Source: a virus. Taken from it: DNA of 64,000 bases. The notes beneath the pieces were generated by a model. The model was not told the DNA's origin, ran no database searches, and was given only the letters and a program-made list of their open reading frames with translations. The translations under genes and the position numbers were made by a program. Shown piece by piece: positions 2 to 50,293 of this stretch (position 1 is its first letter; each line of letters begins with the position of its first letter). The stretch lies in the IMG/VR virus record IMGVR_UViG_3300030099_005838. One strand, given 5' to 3'.

Positions 2-3000
2 TCCCTCAAATGGAAAGAATTGGTAGTAAATCATGTAAGTGCAAGTGGTAACATAAGTGGTTCAGCAACCTCAACAGGTTCGTTTGGTAAAATTGTAATT
101 CCGATGCAAGGAAACAATGTTGCATTTGAGGCTCTAAATGGTAATTTTTCAGTAGCTAATACTATATTCCAACATTCAGCAAATGGTGGTAATCTACAAT
201 TTGGTTCACAAACTGCTGGATTCTTCCATTCGCTTGGTAAAGTTTTTACAAGAAAAGATGGTGGATACGGAGACGGTGGTGATGAGGCATTTAAAGCCAC
301 AGACCATCCTGTTGCTGCTGGTTTTTGGGTTGATTCTGCTGGTAATATGCAATTTGGACATGATAATGGAGCTGGAGTTAGAAATACTGTACAGATGATG
401 ACTTTAGGGCCACAAACTGGACATGCTTCTGGTAGTCTATTAGTATCTGGTAGTATTATAGCTAAAGAGGGAGACGTAAGTGGTTCAGCGACCTCAACCG
501 GTTCGTTTGGAGTCATTCAAAATCCAAGTGGTTTGTTTTTAGGTAGTACAAATGCCGCACATCAGTTTAGTCAAATAACTTCTACCAATCATCTATTCAT
601 CGGAGCTGGTGCATCAACAGTTCAAATGCAAAATGATTTAATTCCTGATGGTAATGGAAGTCAAGACTTAGGTTCAACCCTCAGAAACTTTAATCAAATT
701 TTTGCTAGAACAAAAGTTACTGGTTCATCAATTTCAACTGGTTCGTTTGGTTCGGTTTTTATTAAAAATCAAAGTAATTTACAATTTGGAAGCATAAACA
801 CAAGAATCAGAGGTGATAATAGTAATAATGTGATTACATTTATGACAAACAATACCGAAAGGGTTCGTATCAATGATGATGGAGTGGGAATCGGTGGTGA
901 TCCTGTTGCTTCCAATGGACTCACAATACATGCTGTAAATCCAGGTTTAACCCTACGGTCATCCAACACGACAGGTGCGTGTAAGTTAAGATTTGCGGAT
1001 ACCGGTGATGCTGATATAGGAATGATTGAATATGGTCATTCTTCTAACGCTATGGTATTCAGTACAGGTGATGCAGAAGCATTCAGATTGGATACAAATC
1101 AAAATGCTATTTTTGGTGGTAGTAAAATAAGTGGTTCAGCAACCTCAACCGGTTCGTTTGGTGAGCTACAAATTCATGATAAGATTGGAATCAATACTGC
1201 TGATGCTGGTGCCGTAAGTCCTGCAAGTCCACATACTGGTGCGAAAACAGGATTGATGGAAATAAAGGCTAAGAGTAGTGGTGGTGATGCAGCTTTATTA
1301 ATAAGAAGATTTGAGGGTGATGGTGCTTATGGAATGGATCTGTGGACAGACACAAATGCAGCTGATAGTTATATCGATCAAAGAGGTGGGATATCAGGTG
1401 CACAGTTATACATTAGAACAGCAACACATACTAGTGCTGTAAATGCAGCAATATTCGATCATGTAGGAAATGTTGAGTTTCCAAGTGCAACAACAATAAG
1501 TGGTTCAGCAACCTCAACCGGTTCATTTGGTAATGTCTACGTTGGAAAGGGTGGTGCTCAATTTCAAAATACTAAATTCGCTGTAGTTGATAACAATAGC
1601 ACAGAATACGCTCCGATGGGTGGTAGTTCAAATACTGCAAATGCTATGATTCAGTTTACTAATACAAATACTTCTGCTACTGCTCCACATTCCTTAATAC
1701 ATTTCAGATTGGATAAGAGTGGTGGTGATGGTTATGTAGGATTTATGACATCTACCTCAACAGGTAATATAGAACACTTTGTTGTTGGTAATCAGGTTGA
1801 TGGAGAAATCATCAGAGGGGCAAGTGGAGGCAACGTTGGTATTGGAGATTCGAATCCATCTGGTAAGCTTGTTGTTTCTGGTTCAGGTACTATAAACCTA
1901 CATATAGATAATAGTGGAACTGGTGATACCGGTTTATTAGGAAAGCGTAATGCAACCTCTATATTTGGAATGTTCGATGATGCTAGTGATAGTAAACTAA
2001 GAATAGTAAATTATCAAGCAGAACCGATTGAATTTAGTGTGGATAGGGGTGGTACTGAAACCATTGTGATGACAATGATGAATTCAGGCAGAGTCGGTAT
2101 TGGAAATACAAGTCCTGAGAGTATCTTAGATGTCAGCGGTTCGAATTCATTTGGACAATTACAGATACGTGATGGTAATAATAGTATTTACAGAAGATTT
2201 TTTGTATCAGCATCAGGTGCTCATGGTTTAGGAACATTACACATTCAAAATAGAGCATTTCCTGGCAGTGGAACAGGTGATGTCTACACCCATTTCAAAA
2301 GTAGTGTAGCAGGCGGTACAACTCGAATGAATGTTATGATAGATGGTAAGTTAGGATTAGGAACTACAGATACAGTTCCTGAACAGGCTATACACATTAA
2401 AGCTGCTAATCCAAAGATACAATTTCAAGATACAAGCGTTAGTAATTTAAAACACGTATTATCTGGCGGTGATGGTGATGCTGGTATGGCTTATGAAGCA
2501 GATGTAAATAATGTCGGTGCTGGTTATCACGCATTCAAAATGGGTGGTGCTGAAAGAATTAGATTTATTGAAAACGGTAGTGTTGGCATCGCAGATACTA
2601 GTCCTGCACAACCATTAGTAGTAAGTGGTAGTAGTAAAGGATTGTTATCAGTTGGATTAGCTGGTGGTGGTTCAAGAGTCACTATTGGTGATACCTCTAT
2701 GGATAGTGCACTACATATGAGAAGAAGTAGTAACGGTGCAGCCGATGTTCAAGTTTTACAATTAGGTAGCTCTCTCCATGTGGGTGCTACGAGCAACGTT
2801 ATAAATACCTTGATTCAATCGAATACTTCAGTATTAACAGTTGGTTCAAGCAAAGTGACTTCAAATGCTTCTATTGAACCTACTGCGGATGCTTCATTCA
2901 ACTTAGGTGCTGCAGATAAAAGATGGGCGAATATATTCTCTGCTGACCTTCAACTATCTAATGAGGGAACTGAAGGAAATGAAGTTGATGGAACAACAGG

Positions 3001-3094
3001 TTCTTGGACAATTCAGGAAGGTGAAGATGACTTATATTTATTGAATAGAAAGAATGGTAAAAAATACAAGTTTAAACTTGAGGAGATAACCTAA
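2..3094 (+). CDS. Long tail fibre protein, 5'-truncated by the window edge
   Basis: Frame is open from position 2 (ORF track starts at TTG 20). Repeated ISGSATSTGSFG and GNVGIG-type motifs; C-terminus GSWTIQEGEDDLYLLNRKNGKKYKFKLEEI resembles marine myophage fibre termini. Confidence 0.8.
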   Translation, partial: SLKWKELVVNHVSASGNISGSATSTGSFGKIVIPMQGNNVAFEALNGNFSVANTIFQHSANGGNLQFGSQTAGFFHSLGKVFTRKDGGYGDGGDEAFKATDHPVAAGFWVDSAGNMQFGHDNGAGVRNTVQMMTLGPQTGHASGSLLVSGSIIAKEGDVSGSATSTGSFGVIQNPSGLFLGSTNAAHQFSQITSTNHLFIGAGASTVQMQNDLIPDGNGSQDLGSTLRNFNQIFARTKVTGSSISTGSFGSVFIKNQSNLQFGSINTRIRGDNSNNVITFMTNNTERVRINDDGVGIGGDPVASNGLTIHAVNPGLTLRSSNTTGACKLRFADTGDADIGMIEYGHSSNAMVFSTGDAEAFRLDTNQNAIFGGSKISGSATSTGSFGELQIHDKIGINTADAGAVSPASPHTGAKTGLMEIKAKSSGGDAALLIRRFEGDGAYGMDLWTDTNAADSYIDQRGGISGAQLYIRTATHTSAVNAAIFDHVGNVEFPSATTISGSATSTGSFGNVYVGKGGAQFQNTKFAVVDNNSTEYAPMGGSSNTANAMIQFTNTNTSATAPHSLIHFRLDKSGGDGYVGFMTSTSTGNIEHFVVGNQVDGEIIRGASGGNVGIGDSNPSGKLVVSGSGTINLHIDNSGTGDTGLLGKRNATSIFGMFDDASDSKLRIVNYQAEPIEFSVDRGGTETIVMTMMNSGRVGIGNTSPESILDVSGSNSFGQLQIRDGNNSIYRRFFVSASGAHGLGTLHIQNRAFPGSGTGDVYTHFKSSVAGGTTRMNVMIDGKLGLGTTDTVPEQAIHIKAANPKIQFQDTSVSNLKHVLSGGDGDAGMAYEADVNNVGAGYHAFKMGGAERIRFIENGSVGIADTSPAQPLVVSGSSKGLLSVGLAGGGSRVTIGDTSMDSALHMRRSSNGAADVQVLQLGSSLHVGATSNVINTLIQSNTSVLTVGSSKVTSNASIEPTADASFNLGAADKRWANIFSADLQLSNEGTEGNEVDGTTGSWTIQEGEDDLYLLNRKNGKKYKFKLEEIT

Positions 3095-6000
3095 TGGCAA
3101 TAACCACCAAAAAATTAATAGCTGAAGAATACGTTGTATCCTCTTCGGTAACCCTAATGACCCAATCATTTGCCAGTGGTTCAACTGTATTTGGTGACTC
3201 CTTAGATGATACCCATAGAATGACTGGTTCTCTATTTGTTAGTGGTGGAATATCAACCGATGGTAGTGCTGGTGGAACTGCCACATTTAAAGGAACTTCA
3301 GCACAATCCACATTGAATCTCCAAACTTCTGTAAGTAATTTTGTTGTAGGGTTGTCAAACTCATCTGGTAGACTTGATTTAAGACCTGGTGGTTCAACAG
3401 CACTAACAGTAATTAATTCAGGTAATGTCGGCATCGGAAATACAAGTCCTGGTGCTAAACTAACAATCGGTGGCTCATCTTCATCAGGATTACATGACAT
3501 CAGATTGGAAAACTCATCTGCTCAAATTAAGATAGGAGTAGCAGGTGGTGGTAGTGATATTGTTAGTTCAGCTGTGGCTGGTGACTTTATCATCTCAAAT
3601 GTTACTGGTGGAACAAAGAGTATATTGTTTGGTATCGGAACATCTGAACATATGCGTGTTGACCATTCAGGTAATATCGGCATCGGACAATCAAGTCCTT
3701 CACATCCACTAGATGTCGCTGGTGTTATCAGAACAACTGGTACAGGTACAAATTCTTCGGTTCGCCTTAATAATACAACTAGCAGTACAGGTAATGAATG
3801 GCAGTTGTACAGTTATAATAATGGCGATTTTAGTATTTACGAAACAAGCGACAGGTTATACATAAAGAGTAATGGCAATATCGGCATCGGGGAAACAAGT
3901 CCAGACCAAAAACTTCATATAAAAGCAGCAACACAAATGAGACTTGAAAGGGCAAGTGTCGCCTCTTACGATACTCTTATAGATAATTTAGTCACAGGAG
4001 ATACGGCTGATTTGACATTTCAAGCTCAAACATCAGATACAGGATTTTTATTTCAATCTAAAAATAGTAGTGGTACACAGATTAACGCACTAGCCATAAA
4101 TGAGGCAGGTAAAGTCGGCATCGGGACCACAAATCCAGATGCAAGTTTACATATATCCTCATCAGTCGGTTCTTCAACCTCATCACTGCATATCGAAGGT
4201 AGTGGTTCTTCTGTTGTCGCAGTCGATGGAACACAAGGAAGATTATTCTCAATAACAGACGAATTATCAGGTAGTTTATTTAGTGCAAACACAATATCTG
4301 GTTTGCCTGTAATAGAGGCTTTCTCAGATAATAAGGTAACATTAGGCCCGTTTAGTAAACCTATTACAGTTACATCTACAGGAAACATAAGTGGTTCAGC
4401 AACATCAACTGGTTCGTTTGGTTCGTTGGTTGTAGCTGATAAGGTTCAAGGTAATTTAGTAGCTAGTGGGAACATAACCACAGGGGGACAGATACTAAGT
4501 CCAGGTGGTTCAAACATAGCATTAAATCCAAATACTGGTTTGGTTACAATTGCTAATAATTTACAACTTTCAGGATATGTACAAGCGGCTGGTAATTTAG
4601 TAAGTACAGGAGCAAATGCAAAAATAAGTGGTTCATCAACCTCAACTGGTTCGTTTGGTAATGTTTTTGTCAGAGATGAGATTGAAATAACCGATTCAAA
4701 CACAGCAATATGTGAAGGTAATAATAATTCCGTAAGATTGAAAACCAATAACGGCTACATAGAGATAGGACCACAAAATTCTACACTAGCACATATCTAT
4801 ACTGATAGAAACCAGGGTTTCTTTTTCAATAGGGCTATAGGTGTTCATAATAACAAAATATACGTGGGAGACTTTGGTTCAGAAATAATAACAATAGATC
4901 CGGATGTTTCAGGTGGTAGTCCAAAAATAAGTGGTTCAGCATCTTCAACCGGTTCGTTTGGTAAGGTGAGTGTTGGAACTGCAAATCCGAAGTTCGCACA
5001 TTTAAATGTTGAGGGTGATATTGCATTGGGAACATATGCTGCAAACATGAATCGTAGAATTGGTTTACAAAGAAGTGATGGTGGTGGTTGGTCAAATACA
5101 CCACATATAACTTTTTCCACCGATGGTGGTGCTGATGCGAGTATCAAATTTTCAGTAATAGATTCAGGTGTAGCCGGATATGCTGATGCTGTGGTGATTG
5201 ATAAGTCTGGCAATGTCGGCATCGGAGAAACAAGTCCTTCTGTACCACTTCATGTTTCAGGTGATGGAGGTGCTAGTGATCCACTAGCAACAATGTTACT
5301 AGAATCAACATCAAATCATGGTGGATTGGTAATCAATGCACCTGCAAGCAAACAAACTCACCTTAGATTCCAAAACAATGGTTCTTTAAAATGGCAAATA
5401 AGGTCGCCGTTTCATGATGGTACAAATCCAGATTCTTTAAGAATCTATAGTTGGACGTACGGTGGTGATGTTATGGTATTTAAAAATGATGGCAATGTCG
5501 GCATTGGAACAAATAATCCTGTACAAAAACTTCATCTTCACGGTGGAAGCATGTACATGCAAACCGGACAAAATATTACATGGAATAATGGCGATGTTCA
5601 AATAGGAGCTATAAGTGGTTTTCACTTTAGAATACAAACATATACTGGCTCTTCACTAACAGAAAAAATGCGTGTTACGTCAGGTGGTAATGTCGGCATC
5701 AACACATCAAGTCCTTCAGCCAAATTGCATGTATCTGGCGCGGCCTCAACTACAGCCACATTAATTGAAGGACGTACTAATGGCAACGTTCCAATTCTTC
5801 ATATCAAAGACAAAGCAGATATGTTTGTTGCTATGTTTGAGGGTCAGAGAGCTGGTGATACTGGAGCTGTAGTTTCTATTTATCATAATCCAACAACATC
5901 ACAAGAAACCAACAGAACAATGTTAAACTTTCAAATGAATGATGATGGTGATAACAGAACTACTTATGCTCAACTTTTTTCCGGCATTGATGATCACACA

Positions 6001-9000
6001 GATGGTACAGAGGATGGTAATTTACAAATTAAGACAGTTGAAAATGGCACTCTAACTGAACAAATGACAATTAATTCAACGGGTGTGGGCATCGGAGAAA
6101 CTAGCCCATCATTCCCATTAGATGTTGTAAAGTCTGCTAATACAGGTGATCCATTAACACAAGCAACTGCTTATCAACTAGGTATAAGAAATTCAAACGG
6201 AAATTCAGGTGCCGCTACTTCTATAGCATTTGGACATGAGACTTTTGATTTCTCAGCTTTCATTAGTGCTCTAAGAACTAGCTCAGGTAATCACCCAACT
6301 GCTGATTTGACATTTGGTGCTAGGCCATCCGATAACGCTACTTTTGTTGAGAGAATGCGTATAGTTGGTGCATCAGGCAATGTCGGCATCGGCGAAAATA
6401 GTCCTTCAGCTAAACTACAAATCAAAGGTGGTGGTATAACCGTATCTGGCTCTAATGATACAAGTCCAATACAGGCAATGTTAATCAAAACAAGTGCGGC
6501 TTCATCACAAGGATTAATCGGAGTCGAAGGTAATACCGCGGGTGCTTTTATAACAGGTACAGTTGCTAGGGCTATGGTTGTGGCATCAAGTGCTAGTGGT
6601 ACAGCACTACAATTAGGTGCCGCTGGTTCAGTTGGATTAACAATGTTATCAAATGGTGATATAGGTATCAATGATACAAGCCCATCATTTAAATTAGATG
6701 TAAATGGAACAGGTAGATTTACTGGAAATGTTGCACTTTCAGGTGATAATGCTCAATTATCAATAGGCCATACTGGAGAAACTCATTGGGGAACTGGATT
6801 TGATATTTTAGAAGTCGGTCACTCTATGGCATTGTTCTGTGAGACCGCTGATGGAGCTGATAGAAATGCTTTTGTAGCAAACAATTTATATGCTGATGGT
6901 GATGGATTAAAAAGACATTATACTGATCAAACTGTAAGTATACTTTTAAGAGCTGGTTTTATAGCATTTAGAACAGATGCAAGTGGAACTGCTGGAGCAG
7001 TATTTACACCAAGTGAAAGAATGAGAATTACTGAAGATGGCAATGTCGGCATCGGGACTACAAGTCCTGTAGGACTTTTAACATTATACGATCCAGCAAG
7101 TGGTGATAATAAATTAAGATTTCAAAATTCAACTACTGGAGTCACAACTAGTGATGGAAGTAGAATTGGATTGAATGGTGCTGAACTTTTTATTAATAAT
7201 ATAGAAAGTTCTAATATAAAAATTTATACAGGTAGTACACAAACTCAAGGTATAACCATTGATAGTTCAGGTAAAGTCGGCATCGGGATCACAAGTCCTA
7301 CAGGTAAATTGCAAGTAGCAGGTGATATAGTAATCGCTCAAGGAAGTAAATTAAAAGAACCAGATGGTAATGCATACATATCATTTGATTCAAGTTATCA
7401 CATAACAGGTTCATCTGCTGGTGATATAGTATTTGATATCGATAACAATGGTAATGAAACAAATAGTTTTCTTAGAATAACCAAAGATAATCAAGCAACT
7501 GAGCTAATGAGAGTTCAAGAAAATGGCAATGTCGGCATCGGCACAAATAATCCTGATGTTAAATTTCACGTATTTGATAGTAGCGCTCTAAGTGTTGAAT
7601 TTGAAAGTAGTACAGGTAATGTAGATTTAACAATCAATTCAGGAACAGATGGCGCAGTTGAAAAATCAAGTATTCTTCTTCAAGCTAACAGCTCAAACAA
7701 ATGGGAAATACTAAAGACAACTAGCGATAACTTTCAGATTTACGATTATGGTCGTTCAGCGGGTGTGTTAGATATTATTTCTAATGGCAATATGGGATTA
7801 ATGGCTGATGGTGGAAATGTCGGCATCGGCACCACAAGTCCTGATACAAAACTTCATTTAGCAGATAGTAGCGATGTATATTTAACATTAGAATCTACTC
7901 ATGCATCAACACCTGAAGAAGCAGCAATTAAGTATAGTAATTCTTCTACTTCGGCAAATTATTGGTGGGCTGGATTAAATCAATCAGATGATTACTCATT
8001 GGCTTATGGAACTTCTTTTAGTGGAGCTAATACTAGATTTTTAGTTACTGAAACGGGCAATGTCGGAATCGGAGTTACAGATCCTGATAGTGCTTTAGAA
8101 GTAAAATCATCAGATGATACTTTCTTAAAGGTTTCTACTGGAAATGATACATTTCATGCTAGAATAAAAGCCAGTATTTCAAACGATACTCCAATGCAAA
8201 TGACAGGTATTAGCGGTCATGCTTGGATGAAACAGAGAGGTGGTGATGGTGAAGTAACATTCTTGACTAACGGTGGAAATGAAAGAATGCGTATAGATGG
8301 TTCAGGCAATGTCGGCATCGGCACCACAAATCCTGGTGCTACATTAGATATTTTAGGTCCAAGTGATGGTGTAAATTTAAGATTAAGTGATGTAGCTGGT
8401 AATTCTACAACAAAAGAAGCTCGTATAGGTGTGAGACACTATACAGAAGCTGAAGAAGATACTGCTTTAATGTATGCTCAATCTGGTAATGGAACTTCTG
8501 CAGTCTATATTGGTGGTGGAACAGGTGTGATGAATGCTGTAGAACTTATTGGTTTCGTAACTGCAGCTACTGATACTACTTTATCTGGAACTACAAGAAT
8601 GGTTATTGATAGTGGAGGTAAAGTCGGCATAAATCATGACAGTCCTAGTGCAGTATTGGAAGTAAAAGGTCAGACGGGGGTATCAAGTACTGCTCTTATC
8701 ACACACGGTTTAGTTCAGATGAAGACAACTCATAATGATAGTAGTGAATTAAGACACCAATTCTCTATGGGTGGTGCATCTGATCCAGGCAGTTACAATA
8801 TTTATCAAGGAAATGCCTCTACAATCGGTGTTCATTTAGATGCAGGAGATGATTCCTTTTTCCTAAATAGTGTCGGTATCGGTGGGGCACCAGGTCACAC
8901 AGGATTAGATGTAAGTGCTGGACATATTTCAGTAGATACTGCTTTCAGTATAAAATTAGATGGACCAACCGGTGGTGACTCCATTTCATCACCTTCTTCT

Positions 9001-9092
9001 AACACATTACAATTTATGACTGGTGGTGCTAAAAGATTGATTATCAATAATACACAAATAAGTGGTTCACAACACTCAACTGGTTCGTTTGG
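53..9092 (+). repeat. Nine dispersed direct copies of a ~35-nt repeat, consensus ATAAGTGGTTCAGCAACCTCAACYGGTTCGTTTGG (ISGSATSTGSFG)
   Basis: Copies start at 53, 476, 716, 1127, 1496, 4387, 4624, 4927 and 9058. Confidence 0.9.
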
Positions 9093-9621
9093 TGTTGTAC
9101 GGGCAGGTAATGGTGGTCCTCATGACCCTTCTTATCAATTTGGTGGTAACAGCGACGGTTTCTTCCACGATATATCTGCACCAGGTGAAGGTATTAAGTT
9201 AATGGTAAATAATGCAAATGAAGCATTGTTTGCAAATGGTGGTGACTTCCATGCTGATGGTGATGTTATTTCAAACTCGTCAACAATATCCGATTCTGTA
9301 TTTAAAACAGATGTAACAACGATAAGTTCTGCAGTAAACAAAGTTAAACAGCTAAGAGGTGTCAGTTTTAAATGGTTAAAAGGAAAAAGATCTGGTTCAG
9401 CTGATCTAGGTGTTATTGCACAAGAGGTTGAACCAGTATTACCTGAGATTGTTAAAACAAGACCACTACCGTTATGGCAAGATAAAGACCCGGAAATATC
9501 TGGTTCTTTTAAAACAGTTGATTACGAAAAATTAACTGCAGTCTTAATAGAAAGTGTTAAAGAACAACAAACAAAATTAGAACAACTTGAAGCGGAAATA
9601 GAAAAGTTGAAAGGTGGATAA
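3094..9621 (+). CDS. Long tail fibre (2175 aa) with C-terminal peptidase S74 intramolecular chaperone domain
   Basis: About 17 GNVGIGxxxP repeats; C-terminal SD..FKTDV...V..LRGVSFKW...GVIAQEVE.VLPEIV...VDYEKL..VLIESVKEQ followed by a coiled coil is the S74 signature. Confidence 0.9.
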   Translation: MAITTKKLIAEEYVVSSSVTLMTQSFASGSTVFGDSLDDTHRMTGSLFVSGGISTDGSAGGTATFKGTSAQSTLNLQTSVSNFVVGLSNSSGRLDLRPGGSTALTVINSGNVGIGNTSPGAKLTIGGSSSSGLHDIRLENSSAQIKIGVAGGGSDIVSSAVAGDFIISNVTGGTKSILFGIGTSEHMRVDHSGNIGIGQSSPSHPLDVAGVIRTTGTGTNSSVRLNNTTSSTGNEWQLYSYNNGDFSIYETSDRLYIKSNGNIGIGETSPDQKLHIKAATQMRLERASVASYDTLIDNLVTGDTADLTFQAQTSDTGFLFQSKNSSGTQINALAINEAGKVGIGTTNPDASLHISSSVGSSTSSLHIEGSGSSVVAVDGTQGRLFSITDELSGSLFSANTISGLPVIEAFSDNKVTLGPFSKPITVTSTGNISGSATSTGSFGSLVVADKVQGNLVASGNITTGGQILSPGGSNIALNPNTGLVTIANNLQLSGYVQAAGNLVSTGANAKISGSSTSTGSFGNVFVRDEIEITDSNTAICEGNNNSVRLKTNNGYIEIGPQNSTLAHIYTDRNQGFFFNRAIGVHNNKIYVGDFGSEIITIDPDVSGGSPKISGSASSTGSFGKVSVGTANPKFAHLNVEGDIALGTYAANMNRRIGLQRSDGGGWSNTPHITFSTDGGADASIKFSVIDSGVAGYADAVVIDKSGNVGIGETSPSVPLHVSGDGGASDPLATMLLESTSNHGGLVINAPASKQTHLRFQNNGSLKWQIRSPFHDGTNPDSLRIYSWTYGGDVMVFKNDGNVGIGTNNPVQKLHLHGGSMYMQTGQNITWNNGDVQIGAISGFHFRIQTYTGSSLTEKMRVTSGGNVGINTSSPSAKLHVSGAASTTATLIEGRTNGNVPILHIKDKADMFVAMFEGQRAGDTGAVVSIYHNPTTSQETNRTMLNFQMNDDGDNRTTYAQLFSGIDDHTDGTEDGNLQIKTVENGTLTEQMTINSTGVGIGETSPSFPLDVVKSANTGDPLTQATAYQLGIRNSNGNSGAATSIAFGHETFDFSAFISALRTSSGNHPTADLTFGARPSDNATFVERMRIVGASGNVGIGENSPSAKLQIKGGGITVSGSNDTSPIQAMLIKTSAASSQGLIGVEGNTAGAFITGTVARAMVVASSASGTALQLGAAGSVGLTMLSNGDIGINDTSPSFKLDVNGTGRFTGNVALSGDNAQLSIGHTGETHWGTGFDILEVGHSMALFCETADGADRNAFVANNLYADGDGLKRHYTDQTVSILLRAGFIAFRTDASGTAGAVFTPSERMRITEDGNVGIGTTSPVGLLTLYDPASGDNKLRFQNSTTGVTTSDGSRIGLNGAELFINNIESSNIKIYTGSTQTQGITIDSSGKVGIGITSPTGKLQVAGDIVIAQGSKLKEPDGNAYISFDSSYHITGSSAGDIVFDIDNNGNETNSFLRITKDNQATELMRVQENGNVGIGTNNPDVKFHVFDSSALSVEFESSTGNVDLTINSGTDGAVEKSSILLQANSSNKWEILKTTSDNFQIYDYGRSAGVLDIISNGNMGLMADGGNVGIGTTSPDTKLHLADSSDVYLTLESTHASTPEEAAIKYSNSSTSANYWWAGLNQSDDYSLAYGTSFSGANTRFLVTETGNVGIGVTDPDSALEVKSSDDTFLKVSTGNDTFHARIKASISNDTPMQMTGISGHAWMKQRGGDGEVTFLTNGGNERMRIDGSGNVGIGTTNPGATLDILGPSDGVNLRLSDVAGNSTTKEARIGVRHYTEAEEDTALMYAQSGNGTSAVYIGGGTGVMNAVELIGFVTAATDTTLSGTTRMVIDSGGKVGINHDSPSAVLEVKGQTGVSSTALITHGLVQMKTTHNDSSELRHQFSMGGASDPGSYNIYQGNASTIGVHLDAGDDSFFLNSVGIGGAPGHTGLDVSAGHISVDTAFSIKLDGPTGGDSISSPSSNTLQFMTGGAKRLIINNTQISGSQHSTGSFGVVRAGNGGPHDPSYQFGGNSDGFFHDISAPGEGIKLMVNNANEALFANGGDFHADGDVISNSSTISDSVFKTDVTTISSAVNKVKQLRGVSFKWLKGKRSGSADLGVIAQEVEPVLPEIVKTRPLPLWQDKDPEISGSFKTVDYEKLTAVLIESVKEQQTKLEQLEAEIEKLKGG
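3427..8882 (+). repeat. Dispersed direct repeat GTCGGCATCGG (VGIG) inside the 2175-aa fibre gene
   Basis: Exact copies at 3427, 4114, 5215, 6382, 7045, 7276, 7531, 7819, 8311; ATCGGCATCGG at 3676 and 3880; near-matches at 5497, 5692, 6085, 8062, 8623, 8872. Confidence 0.9.
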
Positions 9622-9624
9622 AAA

Positions 9625-10311
9625 GTGGCCTTACAATACAATCCAAAAATAATAACAAAAGGTTTGGTTATGAACTTAGATACTGCCGATAAAAACAGTT
9701 ATCCTGGTTCGGGTACGACTTGGACAGATTTATGTGGAAATGGTTTTAATGCAACGGTAGGTAGCAGTGTAAGTTTCCAGACAGTTCATGGTGGAGTTCT
9801 CCGAACATTGAATTCAGAAACTAACACTAATCAAAAGATAGAATCCGTTGGTTCTATAAATATTGCTGCATGGAATAAGTACACCTTTGAAATATGGTTT
9901 AAGAATAACGGTTCACAAGGAGGTGATTGTAGTGCATTTGGTTTTGACAATGGGAGTCAAACCAGCTATGGTGCGCGATATCAAGGTTCACAAGTTCAAA
10001 CTTGGATAAATGGAACTTTGGACTTTGGATTAAGTTTCACTGCAGATACAGCAATTCAACAAATAGTAATAACCGGAGATGGACAAACATTCAAGTTGTA
10101 CAAAAATTCTCTCTTGGCAACAACTAAAACTGCAGATGTAACAAATACAGGTCCAGATATACAAAGATTTCATATGAATTCAGATACAAGGACATCTTCT
10201 AACAATGGATATAATGGTGACTATGCAATATGTAGAATGTATAATGAAGTCCTAACACCAACTGAAATAAAACAAAATTACGATGTAAATCGTCCAAGAT
10301 TTGGAGATTAA
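9625..10311 (+). CDS. LamG/concanavalin A-like lectin domain protein (virion-associated)
   Basis: N-terminal GLVMNLD.A...SYPGSGTTWTDL and C-terminal YN..LT..EI.QNY....RFG are typical of phage LamG-like proteins; GTG start. Confidence 0.8.
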   Translation: MALQYNPKIITKGLVMNLDTADKNSYPGSGTTWTDLCGNGFNATVGSSVSFQTVHGGVLRTLNSETNTNQKIESVGSINIAAWNKYTFEIWFKNNGSQGGDCSAFGFDNGSQTSYGARYQGSQVQTWINGTLDFGLSFTADTAIQQIVITGDGQTFKLYKNSLLATTKTADVTNTGPDIQRFHMNSDTRTSSNNGYNGDYAICRMYNEVLTPTEIKQNYDVNRPRFGD

Positions 10312-10313
10312 TT

Positions 10314-11018
10314 ATGGGAGTAGCAAGTAATCCATCAATAGTAAAGTCAGGCCTTATAGGATTTTACGATGCAGTTGCAACAGGTTCCTCTGCAAGCACC
10401 TGGCAGGATTTATCAGGCAACAGTAATAATATCACGTTATCAGGTACTCCTACTATGGCTTCTTATAATCAACAATCCATTATGCATTTGGAAAAGGAAG
10501 ATGGTCAATACGGTACATTTGGTAGTAACCTGTTTTCTGGTTTGACTACTATGACAGCTAATTTTTGGGTACGATTTGAACAAGTTCAAAGTAGTGCTAC
10601 TACACCCTACTATCAATTACTAATTTTTGAAACATGTTGTTGGATAGCACAATATGGAGGAAAGATAGGAATAGATTTATCTGATGGTAGTTGGTTCGAT
10701 GGTAATGGTGGAACTAATACAGGTGCACAAATAGACGATGGTGGAAGCAATATAACAACAGGTAAGTGGTATAATCCATGTTTTACTTGGGGTGGTACTA
10801 CAGTTAATTGTTACATGAATGGTGAACATCAAAGGTCAAGAACCACAACCGGCGTCGATACTTTAGGTTCAGGAACGACACCAAGAAGAATTGCTTTTAG
10901 GGGAGCGAATACTCAATTTGATGGTGACCTTACTATAATTCAGTTGTACAATAAGACATTAAGTGCTAAAGAGGTGAGACAAAATTATAATGCATTTAAA
11001 GGCAGATTTGGATTATAA
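10314..11018 (+). CDS. LamG/concanavalin A-like lectin domain protein, paralog of the upstream gene
   Basis: W.DLSGN.N, W......TW, IIQLYNKTLSAKEVRQNYNAFKGRFGL. Confidence 0.8.
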   Translation: MGVASNPSIVKSGLIGFYDAVATGSSASTWQDLSGNSNNITLSGTPTMASYNQQSIMHLEKEDGQYGTFGSNLFSGLTTMTANFWVRFEQVQSSATTPYYQLLIFETCCWIAQYGGKIGIDLSDGSWFDGNGGTNTGAQIDDGGSNITTGKWYNPCFTWGGTTVNCYMNGEHQRSRTTTGVDTLGSGTTPRRIAFRGANTQFDGDLTIIQLYNKTLSAKEVRQNYNAFKGRFGL

Positions 11019-24540: not shown

Positions 24541-25422
24541 ATGGCACAGACAACAACAGATAATAGTTCAGAAGTAACCACAGTTAACACAACTGTGGAA
24601 CTAAATAGGCAAAAGATTTTTAAGATAAATGAGTCTAAGAAATCAGATACTGCGATTGTCGATTCGTTGATTAAAAGTATCAATAATAAAACCGATAGAG
24701 TTGAAACTGGTTTTTTTGCCGAGCAAAATGAATTTGTGTATAGAAAGGGAAGAAGACCGGTTAAGAAAGGAACACCTTATCATATACATTACACCACAGA
24801 TTTAAAGATATATTATATGACAAGACTTCAACATTCACAAATACTTTCGGAGTTGATTACGAGAGTTTCCAATCTCAGTACCACAGAAATTTATAATAGA
24901 TTAAATCCGCAACAATCTATGATTTTAAAACCCACAATTGTCATACCAGATATAGAGGATTATAAGAAAGAATATATAAAAAGGTACTTTGCTAAAAAAA
25001 CAAATGAAAAGTCAAATATATTTGAAATATCCGAAAAAGACTTTCAAAGGTCTCCACTTTACGATTACGCGGAATTGAACTGGTTTATAAAAGGAGATAG
25101 ACAGCTAGTAAAAGAAACAAATATAATTTCTATCAATATGGCTATTGGAGAATATAACTTTCCTGGTTTGAAAAAAGTCATACCTGAATTTCAGTATTAT
25201 AGAGAACAGGAGGGTTTGAATAAAAAAGAAAATATTGAGAGAAAACTTCAACCTATGATGGGGCAAAATACAACATCAACCACACAGAGTCAAACTGGCC
25301 AACAACAACAACAAAGTAATCTACCATCACCACCATCAGGCTATGGAGCCGGTACACAAGCACCTCCAACTACAGGTGGCTCAGCAGGTACAGGCGGTGG
25401 TGGCGGAGGCGGCTCATATTAA
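24541..25422 (+). CDS. Hypothetical protein with Q/P/G/T low-complexity C-terminus
   Basis: Ends ...GQQQQQSNLPSPPSGYGAGTQAPPTTGGSAGTGGGGGGGSY. Confidence 0.7.
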   Translation: MAQTTTDNSSEVTTVNTTVELNRQKIFKINESKKSDTAIVDSLIKSINNKTDRVETGFFAEQNEFVYRKGRRPVKKGTPYHIHYTTDLKIYYMTRLQHSQILSELITRVSNLSTTEIYNRLNPQQSMILKPTIVIPDIEDYKKEYIKRYFAKKTNEKSNIFEISEKDFQRSPLYDYAELNWFIKGDRQLVKETNIISINMAIGEYNFPGLKKVIPEFQYYREQEGLNKKENIERKLQPMMGQNTTSTTQSQTGQQQQQSNLPSPPSGYGAGTQAPPTTGGSAGTGGGGGGGSY

Positions 25423-25424
25423 AT

Positions 25425-25454
25425 TTGTATTTGAGTTTTTAACGTAATATTTAT
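25425..25454 (+). promoter_or_regulatory. Putative promoter TTGTAT-N17-TATTTAT upstream of thyX
   Basis: Recurrent motif with conserved spacing. Confidence 0.6.
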
Positions 25455-25476
25455 AATAAAATCAAAGGTTATATAA

Positions 25477-26169
25477 ATGAAAAGTCAAGTCTTAGACAAA
25501 GGCTTTATTGAAGTTGTTGATTCATTAGGAGATGATTTAACAGTTGTCAATTCAGCCCGAGTATCATTCGGTAAAAGAAAAACAAAGTTCGATAAATCAG
25601 ATGAAAGATTAGTTCGTTATCTAGCAAAACATAAACACTATTCTCCATTCAGACATCTACAGGTTCAGTTCCATATAAAAGCACCTGAGTTTGTGATGAG
25701 ACAATGGTATAAGCATGTCGTTGGCATCGAAACATCATCATCTAGTTCTACGAAAGACCATGCATGGAATGAGATAAGTGGTAGGTATGTACCTGTTGAG
25801 GACTTCTATGTACCAGAAGTTTACAGAGCACAATCTGAAGATAATAAACAAGCATCAGAGGGTGAGGTGGAGAATCAATCAGATGCTCAGAAACTATGGA
25901 TGGATGCACATTGGTATGTCGTTGGCTTCTACAATGATTTATTAGAGATGGGTATGGCAAAGGAACAGGCCAGAGCTATTCTACCTTTATCACAATACAC
26001 AGAAGTTTATTGGACAGCATCATTTCAGGCGGTTATGAATTTCATAGAGTTACGAAATGAAAAAACCTCACAATGGGAAATACAAGAATATGCAAAAGTA
26101 TTGTTAGAACAAATGAAAGAAGTGTTTCCAAAAACAACTGAACTATGGAGTGAAGCCCACAATTGGTAA
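25477..26169 (+). CDS. thyX: Flavin-dependent thymidylate synthase
   Basis: VVNSARVSF, H.SPFRH...QF.I.APEFV.RQW.KH, WNEISGRY, A.EQAR..LP...YTE.YWT. Confidence 0.92.
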   Translation: MKSQVLDKGFIEVVDSLGDDLTVVNSARVSFGKRKTKFDKSDERLVRYLAKHKHYSPFRHLQVQFHIKAPEFVMRQWYKHVVGIETSSSSSTKDHAWNEISGRYVPVEDFYVPEVYRAQSEDNKQASEGEVENQSDAQKLWMDAHWYVVGFYNDLLEMGMAKEQARAILPLSQYTEVYWTASFQAVMNFIELRNEKTSQWEIQEYAKVLLEQMKEVFPKTTELWSEAHNW

Positions 26170-29943: not shown

Positions 29944-30702
29944 ATGGATATTAATTCTATTCGCAAGCGTCTTAATCAATTACAGACAACAAATAATAGA
30001 ACATCAAACTTATGGAAACCACAACCAGGTAAACAGGTGATTCGTGTGGTGCCTTACTTACACAATAAAGATAATCCTTTTATCGAATTGTTTTTTCATT
30101 TTGGTTTGAATAATAAATCCTATCTTTCACCTATTTCATTTGGTCGTCCAGACCCAATTGAAGAGTTTGCTCAGAAATTAAAACAGAGTGGTAACAGAGA
30201 AGAGTATCAGATGGCTCGTAAGTTAGAAGCTAAGATGAGAACTTTTGCACCTGTTATTGTTCGTGGTGAGGAAACGCAAGGTGTTCGTTTTTGGGGATTT
30301 GGTAAAACTGTTTACCAAGAACTACTTTCAGTAATCGCAGATCCAGACTATGGTGATATTACCGATCCTGTAAATGGTCGTGATGTATCAGTAGAGTTTA
30401 TAACTGCTGAAGAGAGTGGTGCTTCTTTTCCAAAGACATCAATTCGTGTAAAACCAAATCAAACTCCAATCGTTAGTGATAAAGCTCAACTTGAAAACAT
30501 ATTGGAAAACCAAAAAGACATTACTGAATTATATCAGGAAAGGTCTTACGAAGAACTTACAGAAGTTCTGAATGAATGGTTGAATCCTGATGATTCCTCT
30601 GTTGAAGAATCAAAAGAAGAAACCGTTGCTCCAGCTTCTCTAGCAACATCTACTTCTGTAGAAGATGCTAGTTCCGCATTTGACGAGTTATTCAGTAAGT
30701 AA
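29944..30702 (+). CDS. Single-stranded DNA-binding protein (T4 gp32-like)
   Basis: WKP..G...IR..P......PF.E..FH, GVRFWGFGKTVY, DITDP..GRD, acidic tail ending FDELF. Confidence 0.9.
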   Translation: MDINSIRKRLNQLQTTNNRTSNLWKPQPGKQVIRVVPYLHNKDNPFIELFFHFGLNNKSYLSPISFGRPDPIEEFAQKLKQSGNREEYQMARKLEAKMRTFAPVIVRGEETQGVRFWGFGKTVYQELLSVIADPDYGDITDPVNGRDVSVEFITAEESGASFPKTSIRVKPNQTPIVSDKAQLENILENQKDITELYQERSYEELTEVLNEWLNPDDSSVEESKEETVAPASLATSTSVEDASSAFDELFSK

Positions 30703-30707
30703 TCACT

Positions 30708-30774
30708 AAGTGGGTGTTGAAGCCAACACTAATAAAACCGAGTGTGTGATATAAAGCCGGACACACCCACTTTT
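30708..30774 (+). other. Structured intergenic RNA element between ssb and recA
   Basis: Perfect 10-bp inverted repeat AAGTGGGTGT/ACACCCACTT enclosing two alternative hairpins. Confidence 0.55.
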
Positions 30775-30788
30775 AATTGGAGAAAGAT

Positions 30789-31886
30789 ATGTCAGTAAAT
30801 GACGAATTAGCAGGAGTCTTAGCAGACTCTTTAAATAAAAAGTTCAAAGACTACAAAGTAGCATACTTTTTGGATGGTGTTCAAGAAACACCTACAGATA
30901 TCAAAGAGTTTATATCTACAGGTTCAACAATGTTAGATTTAGCAATTTCAAATCGCCCTAATGGTGGTATTGCAGTTGGTAGAATTACGGAGTTGAATGG
31001 TTTAGAGAGTAGTGGTAAATCTTTGGTTGGTGCTCATCTTCTAAAAGAAACTCAAAAGAAAGGTGGTGTTGCAGTCTACATAGATACTGAGACTGCGGTT
31101 AGTGAAGATTTCTTAGAGGTTATTGGAGTGGATATAAATAATATGTTGTATCTACATTTAGAAACAGTAGAAGATATATTCGAAGCCATTGAAGAGATTG
31201 TTACTAAAGTAAGAGAATCCGATAAAGATAGACTTGTAACCATTTTAGTAGATTCACTTGCGGCAGCAACTACTAAGGTAGAGTTAGAAGCTGACTTTGA
31301 CAAAGATGGTTGGGCTACATCAAAGGCTATTGTGATTTCTAAAGCTATGAGAAAGATTACTCAGATGATTGGTAGACAGAGAATAGCTTTAGTATTTACA
31401 AATCAGTTGAGAGTAAAGTTGGGTGCTATGTTTGGAGACCCATACACTACTTCAGGTGGTAAGGCTCTTCCATTTCACGCATCTACCAGAATCCGTTTGA
31501 AGAACAAAGGACAGATAAAGGATACCAAAAAGAATGTAATTGGTATGACTATTCTGGCACAGGTTATTAAAAACAGATTAGGTCCTCCACTTAGAAAGGC
31601 TGAGTTTCCACTCTACTTTGAAAGCGGTGTAGATGATGAGGGTAGTTGGTTGAAGGTTCTCAAAGACCACAAGCTTGTAAAGGTTGGTGGTTCGTGGTAT
31701 ACTATGGTAAACCATAATGGTGAGGAAATAAAATTCCAATCTAAGGATTGGGCAGAAAAGTTGGAAGATGAAGAGTTCAAAGAACATTGTTATAAACTTA
31801 TCTGCGATAAGGTTATACTGAAATACAGTAAAGCAGATTTAGGTATTGATGATGTAGTGGTTACAGACGAGGTATTAGGTGACTAA
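30789..31886 (+). CDS. recA: RecA/UvsX recombinase
   Basis: ISTGS..LD, Walker A GLESSGKS, YIDTE.A, VDS.AA, TSGGKAL.FHAS.R; ATG 30789 follows SD GGAG (track starts at TTG 30777). Confidence 0.93.
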   Translation: MSVNDELAGVLADSLNKKFKDYKVAYFLDGVQETPTDIKEFISTGSTMLDLAISNRPNGGIAVGRITELNGLESSGKSLVGAHLLKETQKKGGVAVYIDTETAVSEDFLEVIGVDINNMLYLHLETVEDIFEAIEEIVTKVRESDKDRLVTILVDSLAAATTKVELEADFDKDGWATSKAIVISKAMRKITQMIGRQRIALVFTNQLRVKLGAMFGDPYTTSGGKALPFHASTRIRLKNKGQIKDTKKNVIGMTILAQVIKNRLGPPLRKAEFPLYFESGVDDEGSWLKVLKDHKLVKVGGSWYTMVNHNGEEIKFQSKDWAEKLEDEEFKEHCYKLICDKVILKYSKADLGIDDVVVTDEVLGD

Positions 31887-32904
31887 TCCTCGATACTTAT
31901 CGATACTTAAAGAAATCAAAGATAAAGGTGGTGAACTTCAATCTACAGAGCCGAACGATAAGGTATTGATTATAGATGGCCTAAATACATTTATCAGATG
32001 TTTTAGTGCTATGCCAACTCTCAATGATGACGGAGCTCATGTTGGGGGAATAGTTGGCTTTCTTAGATCAATCGGTTATGCCATAAAGACAATTAGACCC
32101 ACTCGTTGTGTGATAGTATTTGACGGGAAGGGTGGGTCTAACCGTCGCAAAAAAGTTTTTAGTGGATATAAAGCAAATAGGAATATGTCTAAGAGATTAA
32201 ATAGGACATACGATTTCAATAGTAAAGAAGACGAACATCAATCTATGATGTTGCAGTTGACTAGAGTTATTGATTACTTAGAACAATTACCTATAACCAC
32301 TATAACTATTGAAAACATAGAGGCTGATGATGGTATGGCCTATATCACAAAACAGATTCTAAAGACTTCTAAGATTGTATTGATGTCTACTGATAAAGAT
32401 TTTTTACAATTAGTGAATCACAGAGTCTCAGTTTGGTCTCCAACCAAAAAGAAACTATACGACCCACCAAAGGTATTAGAGGACTATGGTATACCATCCC
32501 ATAATTTCACTATCTACAGAGCGATAGATGGTGATAAATCTGATAACATAGATGGAGTTCGTGGTTGGGGATTGAAAACTATTCAAAAAAAATTACCACT
32601 TTTACTCGAAGACAATATACTTAATATAGATGACATTATTAATGAAGACGAAAAGCTCAAAGAAGCAGAGGTTATATTAAAACGAAACTATGACTTAATG
32701 CAGTTAGACGAGGTTGTGATAAGTTCATCAGCAAAAATCAAAATATTGGATAAAGTAAACGAACCAATTAATAGATTAAATAAGATACAATTTCAGAAGA
32801 GATTCATAGAGGATAGACTATTTGCCACATTACCAAATATGGATAGTTGGTTAGTTCAATGCTTTGGTAAGTTAAATGAAATGGCTGGAAAAACAAATGG
32901 GTAG
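31879..32904 (+). CDS. 5'-3' exonuclease / T4 RNase H-like (FEN family)
   Basis: IIDGLN, VFDG.GG, Y.GYKANR, EADD, STDKDFLQL, GD.SDNI.GV.G.G.KT. Confidence 0.92.
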   Translation: MTNPRYLSILKEIKDKGGELQSTEPNDKVLIIDGLNTFIRCFSAMPTLNDDGAHVGGIVGFLRSIGYAIKTIRPTRCVIVFDGKGGSNRRKKVFSGYKANRNMSKRLNRTYDFNSKEDEHQSMMLQLTRVIDYLEQLPITTITIENIEADDGMAYITKQILKTSKIVLMSTDKDFLQLVNHRVSVWSPTKKKLYDPPKVLEDYGIPSHNFTIYRAIDGDKSDNIDGVRGWGLKTIQKKLPLLLEDNILNIDDIINEDEKLKEAEVILKRNYDLMQLDEVVISSSAKIKILDKVNEPINRLNKIQFQKRFIEDRLFATLPNMDSWLVQCFGKLNEMAGKTNG

Positions 32905-36579: not shown

Positions 36580-36609
36580 TTTTCATTAATGAACAACAAG
36601 GAGATTACT

Positions 36610-47595: not shown

Positions 47596-47621
47596 TATTT
47601 ATTGATATAACGGAGATAACA

Positions 47622-48657: not shown

Positions 48658-48908
48658 GTTTGAATTTTAGGGATGATTTAATCAAAGCTAGTGAGAAGCA
48701 TTTTGAGGCCCACATCGAAAAGCATCGAATAAATGTTGAAATATTACTTGAAAATGCAGCTGGTGTTGCCGAACATCCGGATATAATGGAAACTATAGAA
48801 AAAGAGTTAGCTATTATATCAGATTATGAAGATAAGCTGGAAGTTTTGAGAAAGTATTTTACTAGTGGTTGGGTAGCTGGAAAAAAGAAAGGGGTATTAA
48901 ATGGCTAA
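48654..48908 (+). CDS. Conserved phage hypothetical protein
   Basis: H..NVE..L....GV.EHPDI.E.IE.EL..I..Y.DKL. Confidence 0.65.
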   Translation: MSLNFRDDLIKASEKHFEAHIEKHRINVEILLENAAGVAEHPDIMETIEKELAIISDYEDKLEVLRKYFTSGWVAGKKKGVLNG

Positions 48909-50292: not shown

Positions 50293-50293
50293 G

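What the first reader, a model, noticed from the sequence alone, without database searches (positions are those of the whole stretch)
3427..8882. Synonymous-codon-locked GTCGGCATCGG junctions punctuate the giant tail fibre: candidate module-shuffling sites
Seen: at nearly every VGIG repeat of the 2175-aa fibre the codons are GTC-GGC-ATC-GGN (9 exact 11-mers, 11 with TCGGCATCGG, about 6 near-matches). The rest of this AT-rich gene mostly uses GTT/GTA, GGT/GGA and ATT/ATA, and the upstream fibre mostly writes the same peptide with other codons (GTT GGT ATT at 1835, GTC GGT ATT at 2093). The modules between junctions (roughly 190-1100 nt) look unrelated to one another. Inference: the DNA word itself is maintained, by gene conversion or as a crossover site, which would let the phage swap, delete or duplicate adhesin modules. 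All copies are direct, so this is not an inversion shufflon, and no recombinase other than UvsX is in the window.
Basis: partly seen in the sequence, partly recalled or inferred. Interest (0 to 1): 0.72.

Follow-up and report, generated by a model that had tools for sequence, protein, structure and literature searches.

The report
Codon-locked recombination joints in fibre gene
The giant tail-fibre gene of an abundant uncultured marine T4-like phage is built from unrelated modules joined by one short DNA stretch spelt in the same rare codons, and related phages have swapped and reordered whole modules at that stretch, so it very likely acts as an in-frame crossover site for rebuilding the host-recognition fibre.

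Summary
GTCGGCATCGG occurs 9 times, all on the + strand and all inside the 2175-aa fibre gene (0 expected by chance). In the GNVGIG motifs, Val is GTC 13/13 (11% elsewhere in the gene), Gly is GGC 14/16 (7%) and Ile is ATC 14/16 (18%).

The locked zone is about 33 nt, codons -3 to +7. An equally conserved Leu four codons further on is spelt freely, so peptide conservation alone does not explain the locking. With the joints stripped, none of the 120 module pairs is similar.

Three syntenic orthologs have flanking genes 85-94% identical and use the same spelling. They carry whole joint-to-joint modules at 84-96% nt identity, but in different positions and orders.
- Of 47 internal block ends, 23 fall in the joint zone, which is 11.5% of the gene (p=2.5e-10).
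- One junction resolves to the word itself.
- All 16 informative canonical-word joints are breakpoints. Six of 11 joints spelt differently are crossed by continuous homology.

An unrelated fibre with its own spelling carries one imported module whose two flanking joints keep this phage's spelling.

Best reading: a short-homology crossover joint used by general recombination over evolutionary time. It is not a programmed switch, because the gene is identical in 24 or more assemblies. The principle is known from T-even gp37/gp38. Unchecked earlier notes of this scan report similar joints in other genomes.

The parts
3094..9621 (+). Giant tail-fibre gene, 2175 aa. It has an N-terminal anchor, about 18 VGIG-type joints, 4 ISGS-type joints and a C-terminal S74 chaperone.
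   Evidence: ORF; translation; Peptidase_S74
3094..3452 (+). Conserved N-terminal anchor. It is shared at 88-92% nt with the syntenic orthologs: the first 144 nt with L129, and up to just past the first joint with L132 and L138.
3427..3437 (+). Joint core 1, exact word. Conservation with L132/L138 ends here.
3676..3686 (+). Joint core 2, with ATC in place of GTC. It is the 5' edge of the module shared with L130, L131, L125 and L126.
3880..3890 (+). Joint core 3 (ATC GGC ATC GGG). It is the 3' edge of the same shared module.
4114..4124 (+). Joint core 4, exact word. It is the 5' edge of the module shared with L138 (91%), L129 and L132.
5215..5225 (+). Joint core 5, exact word, and the resolved crossover. 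The left block matches L129 3711-4009 and the right block matches L129 6021-6315. The two alignments overlap only in this word.
5497..5507 (+). Joint core 6, one synonymous change (ATT). It is the 3' edge of the block shared with L129.
5692..5702 (+). Joint core 7, VGIN variant (GTC GGC ATC AAC).
6085..6095 (+). Joint core 8, one change (GTG).
6382..6392 (+). Joint core 9, exact word. The block shared with L132/L138 starts about 20 nt after it.
6661..6671 (+). Joint core 10, spelt differently (ATA GGT ATC AAT).
7045..7055 (+). Joint core 11, exact word. It is the 5' edge of the module shared with L129 at 90%, which sits in a different position there.
7276..7286 (+). Joint core 12, exact word. 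It is the 3' edge of that module.
7531..7541 (+). Joint core 13, exact word.
7819..7829 (+). Joint core 14, exact word.
8062..8072 (+). Joint core 15, one change (GGA).
8311..8321 (+). Joint core 16, exact word.
8623..8633 (+). Joint core 17, VGIN variant (GTC GGC ATA AAT).
8872..8882 (+). Joint core 18, near-match (GTC GGT ATC GGT).
4387..4422 (+). Second joint type (ISGSATSTGSFG, about 36 nt, rare TCG codon), copy 1. It is the 3' edge of the block shared with L129, L132 and L138.
   Evidence: (family D6)
4624..4659 (+). ISGS-type joint, copy 2.
4927..4962 (+). ISGS-type joint, copy 3. It is the 5' edge of the block shared with L129.
9058..9093 (+). ISGS-type joint, copy 4.
9289..9456 (+). 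Peptidase_S74 intramolecular chaperone. The SDxxxK autoproteolysis motif starts at aa 2066.
2..3094 (+). Upstream fibre gene, 5' end outside the window. It has 5 ISGS-type joints with the same spelling, and its VGIG motifs are in ordinary codons. It is also mosaic at motifs compared with L132 (blocks 1497-2118 and 2581-3452).
9625..11018 (+). Two conserved downstream genes (228 aa; 234 aa Laminin_G_3). They mark the 3' edge of the variable region in all orthologs.
29944..32904 (+). General recombination genes: gp32-like SSB, UvsX/RecA and a 5'-3' exonuclease. They are the likely machinery; the link to the joints is inferred.

Best explanation
The fibre is an array of structurally equivalent but sequence-unrelated modules. 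Each module begins with the same capping-loop peptide, (S)GNVGIGTTSP.

In this phage lineage the DNA for that peptide is held as one roughly 33-nt joint with a GC-rich core, GTC GGC ATC GG. Because the joint is in frame and encodes the same peptide in every module, any crossover inside it between two non-allelic joints gives an intact fibre with modules swapped, lost, gained or reordered. The two joints can be in one genome or in co-infecting phages.

The crossovers are short-homology events, usually 11-22 identical nt. They are probably made by the phage's general recombination and replication system (UvsX, gp32, exonucleases). They are rare, and they are then sorted by selection on host recognition.

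The unusual spelling is best read as a frozen word. Junctions seen today are those made or kept by exchange with a pool of modules carrying the same word, so silent changes in it are under-represented.

Shown:
- the codon locking and its extent
- the unrelatedness of the modules
- the mosaic structure, the breakpoints at joints, and one junction resolved to the word
- an imported module that keeps its donor's spelling

Inferred:
- that DNA identity, not only the domain boundary, directs the crossovers
- which enzymes act
- why this word is kept
For: 1. Locking. GTC, GGC and ATC are used 13/13, 14/16 and 14/16 times in the motifs, against 11%, 7% and 18% elsewhere in the gene and 9%, 5% and 14% in 43 other ORFs. 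Over 69 joints in four orthologs, GTC is 49/60, GGC 56/69 and ATC 50/69 (p 1e-31 to 1e-66). AAT, ACA, AGT and CCT are locked too. The conserved Leu at +11 and Val at +13 are spelt freely.

2. Not recent duplication. There is no intragenic nt similarity outside the joints, and 0 of 120 stripped module pairs match.

3. Orthologs. L129, L132 and L138 share the flanking genes at 85-94% nt and use the same spelling. Whole joint-to-joint segments are shared at 84-96% nt in other positions, for example WIN_08~L129_16, WIN_14~L129_03 and L132_15~L138_09. Shared modules run A-B-C-D-E in L132 and A-D-C-B-E in L138.

4. Breakpoints.
- 59% of 56 block ends lie within 25 nt of a core, against 14% expected and a maximum of 34% in 2000 randomisations.
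- 23 of 47 ends lie in the joint zone, which covers 11.5% of the gene (p=2.5e-10).
- At 5215-5225 the left homolog falls from 82% to 60% identity and the right homolog rises from 42% to 92%. The two overlap only in TCGGCATCGGA.

5. Spelling matters.
- 16 of 16 informative canonical joints are breakpoints and none is spanned.
- Of 11 joints spelt differently, 6 are spanned by continuous homology. Fisher p=0.0016 as counted, and about 0.055 after collapsing shared events.
- The 3-module block with other spellings travels as one unit between L132 and L138.

6. Horizontal import. L130 spells most of its joints GTA GGT ATT GGT. The only two spelt GTC GGC flank the module it shares with this phage at 91.6% nt.

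7. Not an assembly artefact. The window's gene is identical in both assemblies compared and is carried on at least 24 contigs. The L129 architecture is reproduced in L133 and L143.
Against: - The homology is short. Only 40% of non-homologous joint pairs share 11 nt or more across the core, and 2% share 20 nt or more. This is below the usual length for efficient RecA-type exchange, so events must be rare, or made by annealing or template switching.
- About half of the block ends are not at VGIG joints.
- A few junctions join a VGIG joint to an ISGS joint with only a few shared bases.
- No variant architecture was found in the population. The protein cluster has a single member and the DNA is invariant.
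- BLAST alignments extend through any conserved motif, so ends are only placed to about +/-10 nt.
- The canonical-versus-degenerate comparison rests on few independent events.
- Why the core is GC-rich is unexplained.
Confidence: 0.72

Rival explanations
1. The rare codons are selected for translation of the capping loop, either as a pause at each module start or for accuracy at critical residues. On this view breakpoints fall at joints only because chimeras are viable at domain boundaries.
For: The locked residues are the most conserved ones. GTC, GGC and ATC are rare in this phage and recur at regular module starts. Breakpoints at domain boundaries are expected under any mechanism.
Against: - In the same locked zone Asn is AAT 40/40, Ser is AGT 24/27 and Pro is CCT, so there is no general shift to C-ending or rare codons.
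- The conserved Leu at +11 is not locked.
- Fibres with the same codon background write the same peptide in common codons: L130, L131, L125 and pelagiphage Jormungand.
- Both spellings coexist within L130, L132 and L138, and each follows the ancestry of its module.
- Canonical joints are always breakpoints, while joints spelt differently are often spanned.
Confidence: 0.12
2. A sequence-specific enzyme, such as a homing-type endonuclease or a site-specific recombinase encoded elsewhere in the 186-kb genome, recognises the word and starts the exchange.
For: The word is conserved far more strictly than short-homology recombination would seem to need. T4-like phages often carry homing endonucleases (general knowledge). 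Only 64 kb of the genome was examined.
Against: No HNH, GIY-YIG, integrase or invertase domain was found in the 43 ORFs scanned. The word is not palindromic and has no inverted partner. Other gene pools use other spellings, and a second, unrelated joint (ISGS) behaves the same way.
Confidence: 0.05
3. The shared spelling is identity by descent from a recent repeat expansion, or from a GC-richer donor, and is not actively maintained.
For: The repeats clearly derive from one ancestral unit. GTC GGC ATC is the natural spelling in genomes with 50-60% GC.
Against: Modules have diverged beyond detection at both nt and protein level, while silent sites in the joint have not. Silent sites 10 codons away are free. 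The same word is kept in four orthologs whose modules are mostly different.
Confidence: 0.04
4. The mosaic pattern is an artefact of metagenome assemblers joining different phages at the repeated word.
For: All relatives are metagenomic contigs, and repeats can cause chimeric assemblies.
Against: The repeats are at most 29 nt of exact identity, shorter than the large final k-mer sizes assemblers typically use (the contig names carry k127 and k141). The window's gene is carried on at least 24 contigs from different samples, and the two compared (one SPAdes-style, one TARA) are identical. L129 is reproduced at 99.96-100% in two other records. L132 and L138 share long colinear blocks.
Confidence: 0.02

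Closest known systems
Conserved-motif recombination in T-even distal tail-fibre and adhesin genes (gp37 'His boxes', gp38 glycine-rich motifs; Tetart et al. 1996, 1998, as cited in Trojet et al. 2011, PMC3157838)
   Same: Short conserved motifs separate variable segments of a host-recognition protein of a T4-type phage. Exchanges that create chimeric adhesins occur within or near the motifs (PMC3157838). No dedicated recombinase is involved.
   Different: - The protein and motif are different. There is no gp37/gp38 family hit, only S74.
- There are about 18 interchangeable joints in one 6.5-kb gene, so module order itself is permuted.
- The joint is written in codons that are rare for the genome, which makes the DNA-level constraint directly visible.
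- Different gene pools use different spellings.
- There are no experimental crosses here.
Mosaic adhesive trimer (MAT) fibres of Bdellovibrio and S74-chaperone phage fibres (Caulton et al. 2024, PMC10769870; PDB 8OND, 8OML)
   Same: The joints and their flanks align to Bd2133 and related chains (E 5e-8 to 2e-4). The fibre has a C-terminal S74 domain with SDxxxK. The paper describes a recurring V-G-...-P-...-L capping-loop motif on trimeric beta-helices.
   Different: That work describes protein structure and mosaic domain content, not a DNA-level joint or codon locking. Those proteins are bacterial surface fibres, not phage tail fibres. The trimeric fold of this protein was not modelled here.
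Mobile regulatory cassettes (PeSL) mediating modular shuffling in T4-type genomes (Arbiol et al. 2010, PMC2839356; title and abstract only)
   Same: A short repeated DNA element serves as the homology for reshuffling modules in T4-type phages.
   Different: PeSL elements are intergenic promoter and stem-loop cassettes that move whole genes. The joints here are coding, in frame and lie inside one gene.
Fibre shufflons and invertible segments (Rci shufflon; Gin, Cin and Min systems)
   Same: They generate alternative fibre or pilus tips from cassettes bounded by short repeats.
   Different: They need inverted repeats and an adjacent site-specific recombinase, and they switch at high frequency. 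Here all repeats are direct, no such recombinase is present, and no switching is seen.

Membership tests
Conserved-motif recombination joints of T-even fibre/adhesin genes | Short conserved motifs alternate with variable segments in a host-recognition gene | tested here: met
   There are 18 VGIG-type and 4 ISGS-type joints between unrelated modules.
Conserved-motif recombination joints of T-even fibre/adhesin genes | Exchanges between related phages map within or next to the motifs | tested here: met
   23 of 47 block ends lie in the joint zone against 11.5% expected. One junction is resolved to the 11-nt word.
Conserved-motif recombination joints of T-even fibre/adhesin genes | Homology to gp37/gp38 (His box or glycine-rich motif) | tested here: not met
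   Pfam finds only Peptidase_S74. The motif here is a different peptide. The system works like this family but is not a sequence member of it.
Conserved-motif recombination joints of T-even fibre/adhesin genes | Recombinants at the motifs obtained in crosses | not testable with these tools
   The phage is uncultured and its host is unknown.
S74-chaperone trimeric fibres / MAT-type fibres | C-terminal Peptidase_S74 domain with the SDxxxK motif | tested here: met
   PF13884, E 8e-13, aa 2066-2121. SDSVFK starts at aa 2066.
S74-chaperone trimeric fibres / MAT-type fibres | Repeated capping-loop motif aligned to solved fibres | tested here: met
   phmmer hits to 8OND, 8OML, 8OJN and 8ON4, with the joints aligned. 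The motif is described in PMC10769870.
S74-chaperone trimeric fibres / MAT-type fibres | Trimeric beta-helix or beta-prism fold | not tested
   No structure prediction was run.
Shufflon / invertible fibre segments | Inverted crossover repeats | tested here: not met
   All copies are on the + strand.
Shufflon / invertible fibre segments | Adjacent site-specific recombinase | tested here: not met
   No integrase or invertase domain was found in the 43 ORFs scanned in the window. The rest of the genome was not seen.
Diversity-generating retroelement | Reverse transcriptase with a template/variable repeat pair | tested here: not met
   There is no RT domain in the window. Variation is by whole modules, not by adenine-directed point changes.

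The most novel reading that the evidence does not exclude
The silent spelling of the joint acts as a compatibility code. Each pool of marine phage fibre genes keeps its own 'dialect' of the same peptide joint. Examples are GTC GGC ATC GGR here, GTA GGT ATT GGT in L130 and GTT GGT ATT GGA in L125/L131.

Modules then shuffle freely within a dialect but stay linked when they are imported across dialects. On this reading, synonymous sites are held by selection for the capacity to recombine, which is second-order selection. The GC-rich core in an AT-rich genome would be favoured because it stabilises very short heteroduplexes.
Probability: 0.3. Interest if true: 0.8.

Novelty: new variant of a known kind. 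Interest (0 to 1): 0.6.

Why it matters
Tail fibres set phage host range, and how they diversify in the ocean is mostly inferred from protein mosaics. Here silent codon positions give direct DNA-level evidence that a recombination joint is itself conserved, so evolvability of host recognition becomes testable: recode the joint and measure exchange.

The joint also gives a natural, in-frame design rule for assembling chimeric fibres. It is a practical marker for finding shuffling-prone fibre genes in metagenomes. The comparison of canonical joints with joints spelt differently is a way to separate crossovers guided by DNA homology from simple tolerance of domain boundaries.

Tried and rejected
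- **Own genome.** No whole genome is held for this window.
- **Cultured phages.** Megablast of the gene against cultured phages found nothing. tblastn found only relatives at about 26-34% identity.
- **Whole-protein homolog search.** It timed out. The N-terminal search found no close full-length relative.
- **IMG/VR scan for the 14-mer.**
No claim about a joint shared across domains of life is made from it.
  - Several AT-rich fibre genes in that set also repeat the word, but they were selected for carrying it.
- **GC-biased gene conversion.** This was considered as the cause of the C-ending codons and rejected, because AAT, ACA, AGT and CCT in the same locked zone end in A or T.
- **Other causes of the locking.** Antisense ORFs over some joints and the out-of-frame ATG in AAT-GTC were considered and dropped. 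They cannot explain a word that recurs in unrelated modules.
- **Mom-type DNA modification.** I judged from memory of the Mu Mom recognition consensus that the word does not fit it. This was not tested.
- **tRNAs.** There are no tRNA genes in the window.

Full report
**What is there**

The window comes from an AT-rich (34% GC) uncultured marine T4-like myophage.
- Its sheath is 44% identical to that of Microcystis phage Mel-JY01, and 53% over part of its length to Flavobacterium phages.
- ORF 3094-9621 encodes a 2175-aa fibre with a C-terminal Peptidase_S74 chaperone and the SDxxxK motif at aa 2066.
- Its repeated peptide, (S)GNVGIGTTSPxxKLHV, aligns to solved Bdellovibrio MAT fibres (8OND, 8OML). 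In those fibres a V-G-...-P-...-L motif forms capping loops on trimeric beta-helices (PMC10769870).

- GTCGGCATCGG occurs 9 times with 0 expected. The 10-mer occurs 11 times exactly and 4 times with one mismatch. Every copy is on the + strand and inside this gene.
- In 16 motifs Val is GTC 13/13, Gly is GGC 14/16 and Ile is ATC 14/16. Elsewhere in the gene the figures are 14/127, 16/239 and 24/131.
- In 43 other ORFs these codons make up 9%, 5% and 14%, and the sheath gene does not prefer them.
- The upstream fibre writes the same peptide in ordinary codons.

**The constraint is on DNA, not on the peptide or its translation**

I pooled 69 joints from this gene and three orthologs.
- The locked stretch runs from codon -3 to +7, about 33 nt.
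- It includes ordinary A/T-ending codons: AAT 40/40, ACA 34/39, AGT 24/27 and CCT 40/62.
- The equally conserved Leu at +11 uses four codons freely and Val at +13 follows background.

General selection for accurate or slow codons would not stop so sharply, and it would not choose AAT and AGT.

The fourth codon (Gly) varies, but it avoids GGT, the commonest Gly codon.

A second joint, ISGSATSTGSFG, is locked in the same way. The rare TCG codon is used in 8 of 9 copies across both fibre genes.

**The modules are not recent copies**

Apart from the joints there is no intragenic nucleotide similarity. After the joints are stripped, 0 of 120 module pairs match by BLASTP.

**Relatives**

The exact gene is carried on at least 24 contigs, and its DNA is identical in the two independent assemblies compared.

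Using the conserved downstream gene as an anchor, I found three syntenic orthologs: L129, L132 and L138.
- Their flanking genes are 85-94% identical to the window's.
- The L129 architecture is reproduced in two further records.
- All three spell most joints GTC GGC ATC GG against the same AT-rich background.

Between the conserved N-terminal anchor and the stop codon, the genes are mosaics.
- Most of this phage's modules have no nucleotide homolog in the other three.
- The shared modules are whole joint-to-joint segments at 84-96% identity, placed in other positions.
- Between L132 and L138 the shared units run A-B-C-D-E and A-D-C-B-E.

**Breakpoints**

- 59% of block ends lie within 25 nt of a core, against 14% expected.
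- 23 of 47 ends lie in a joint zone that covers 11.5% of the gene (p=2.5e-10). Events are not all independent, and ends are placed to about +/-10 nt.
- At 5215-5225 two blocks that are adjacent in this phage are 2 kb apart in L129. Their alignments overlap only in TCGGCATCGGA. Identity to the left homolog falls from 82% to 60%, and identity to the right homolog rises from 42% to 92%.
- Some ends lie at ISGS joints, and about half lie elsewhere.

**Does the spelling matter?**

- Among joints next to a shared block, all 16 canonical-word joints are breakpoints.
- Of 11 joints that encode the same peptide in other codons, 6 are crossed by continuous homology. Fisher p=0.0016 as counted, and about 0.055 after I collapsed events shared between genes by hand.
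- The three-module block with other spellings moves as one unit between L132 and L138.
- L130 is an unrelated fibre that spells most of its joints GTA GGT ATT GGT. The only two of its joints spelt GTC GGC are the ones that flank the module it shares with this phage at 91.6% nt. L131, L125 and L126 carry the same module.
- Other fibre genes each have their own fairly uniform spelling.

**Mechanism**

- No integrase, invertase, reverse transcriptase or homing endonuclease is present in the window. UvsX, gp32, a FEN-type exonuclease and a PD-(D/E)XK nuclease are.
- Exact identity between non-homologous joints is short: 40% of pairs share 11 nt or more, 20% share 14 nt or more, and the maximum is 29 nt.
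- I therefore infer rare short-homology crossovers, or annealing or template switching, made by the general recombination machinery and then filtered by selection on host recognition.
- The invariant gene across assemblies argues against a programmed, high-frequency switch.
- Why the core is GC-rich is not explained. GC-biased conversion does not fit. Greater stability of a very short heteroduplex is a guess.

**Comparison with what is known**

The principle is established for T-even gp37 and gp38: exchanges occur within or near conserved motifs (PMC3157838). The system here works the same way but is not a sequence member of that family.

Four features are different here:
- the large number of interchangeable joints within one gene
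- the permutation of module order
- the visibly anomalous codons
- the lineage-specific spellings

Earlier notes of this scan, which are unchecked AI notes, report codon-locked fibre joints in several other genomes and further joints upstream in this genome. I did not test those claims.

Noticed in passing
window 36589-39357 (+): A 922-aa ORF with CarboxypepD_reg and TonB-dependent receptor Plug domains, which is the SusC-like architecture. It sits between the ribonucleotide reductase and DNA polymerase genes of the phage. It may be an auxiliary gene, and it hints at a Bacteroidota host.
   Followed up: no
window 42735-43493 and 45066-45725 (+), with 45752-46135: Two Mom-family proteins and a DUF1599 'nucleotide modification associated' protein. 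Together they suggest that the phage DNA is hypermodified.
   Followed up: no
window 48901-63961 (+): A long run of glycosyltransferases, a sulfotransferase, an ATP-grasp enzyme, a PIG-L deacetylase and polysaccharide-biosynthesis epimerases/dehydratases. This is a glycan-building cluster inside a phage genome.
   Followed up: no
window 24541-26169 (+): ThyX (25477-26169) and the ORF before it use GGC for 32-38% of Gly and GTC for 18-27% of Val, far above the rest of the window. They may have been acquired recently.
   Followed up: no
window 4387-4422, 4624-4659, 4927-4962, 9058-9093; also 5 copies in 2-3094: A second codon-locked joint of about 36 nt (ISGSATSTGSFG, rare TCG codon in 8 of 9 copies). 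It is shared by both fibre genes and by L129, and it also marks block ends.
   Followed up: partly
L130 6501-6715: A fibre of an unrelated phage contig carries one module at 91.6% nt identity to window 3673-3887. The only two of its joints spelt GTC GGC are the ones flanking that module; most of its other joints are spelt GTA GGT ATT GGT.
   Followed up: yes
L132 4382-5786 and L138 2123-3251: A three-module block whose joints use other, mutually different spellings is kept together at 93-96% nt between two orthologs. Modules bounded by the canonical word are scattered.
   Followed up: partly
window 9625-11018 (+): Two small genes directly after the fibre (228 aa with no family hit; 234 aa Laminin_G_3). 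They are conserved in every ortholog and mark the 3' limit of the variable region. They may be fibre-associated lectin-like proteins.
   Followed up: no
window 46759-48423 (+): A PD-(D/E)XK nuclease and a SLOG/DprA-like protein lie close together. They may be extra recombination or DNA-processing functions.
   Followed up: no
L152, L153, L155, L156: More distant myophages (GC 0.30-0.32) keep a homolog of the downstream 228-aa gene. They have giant neighbouring ORFs of 1200-2600 aa without any VGIGxxxP joint, so the joint system is specific to one lineage.
   Followed up: partly
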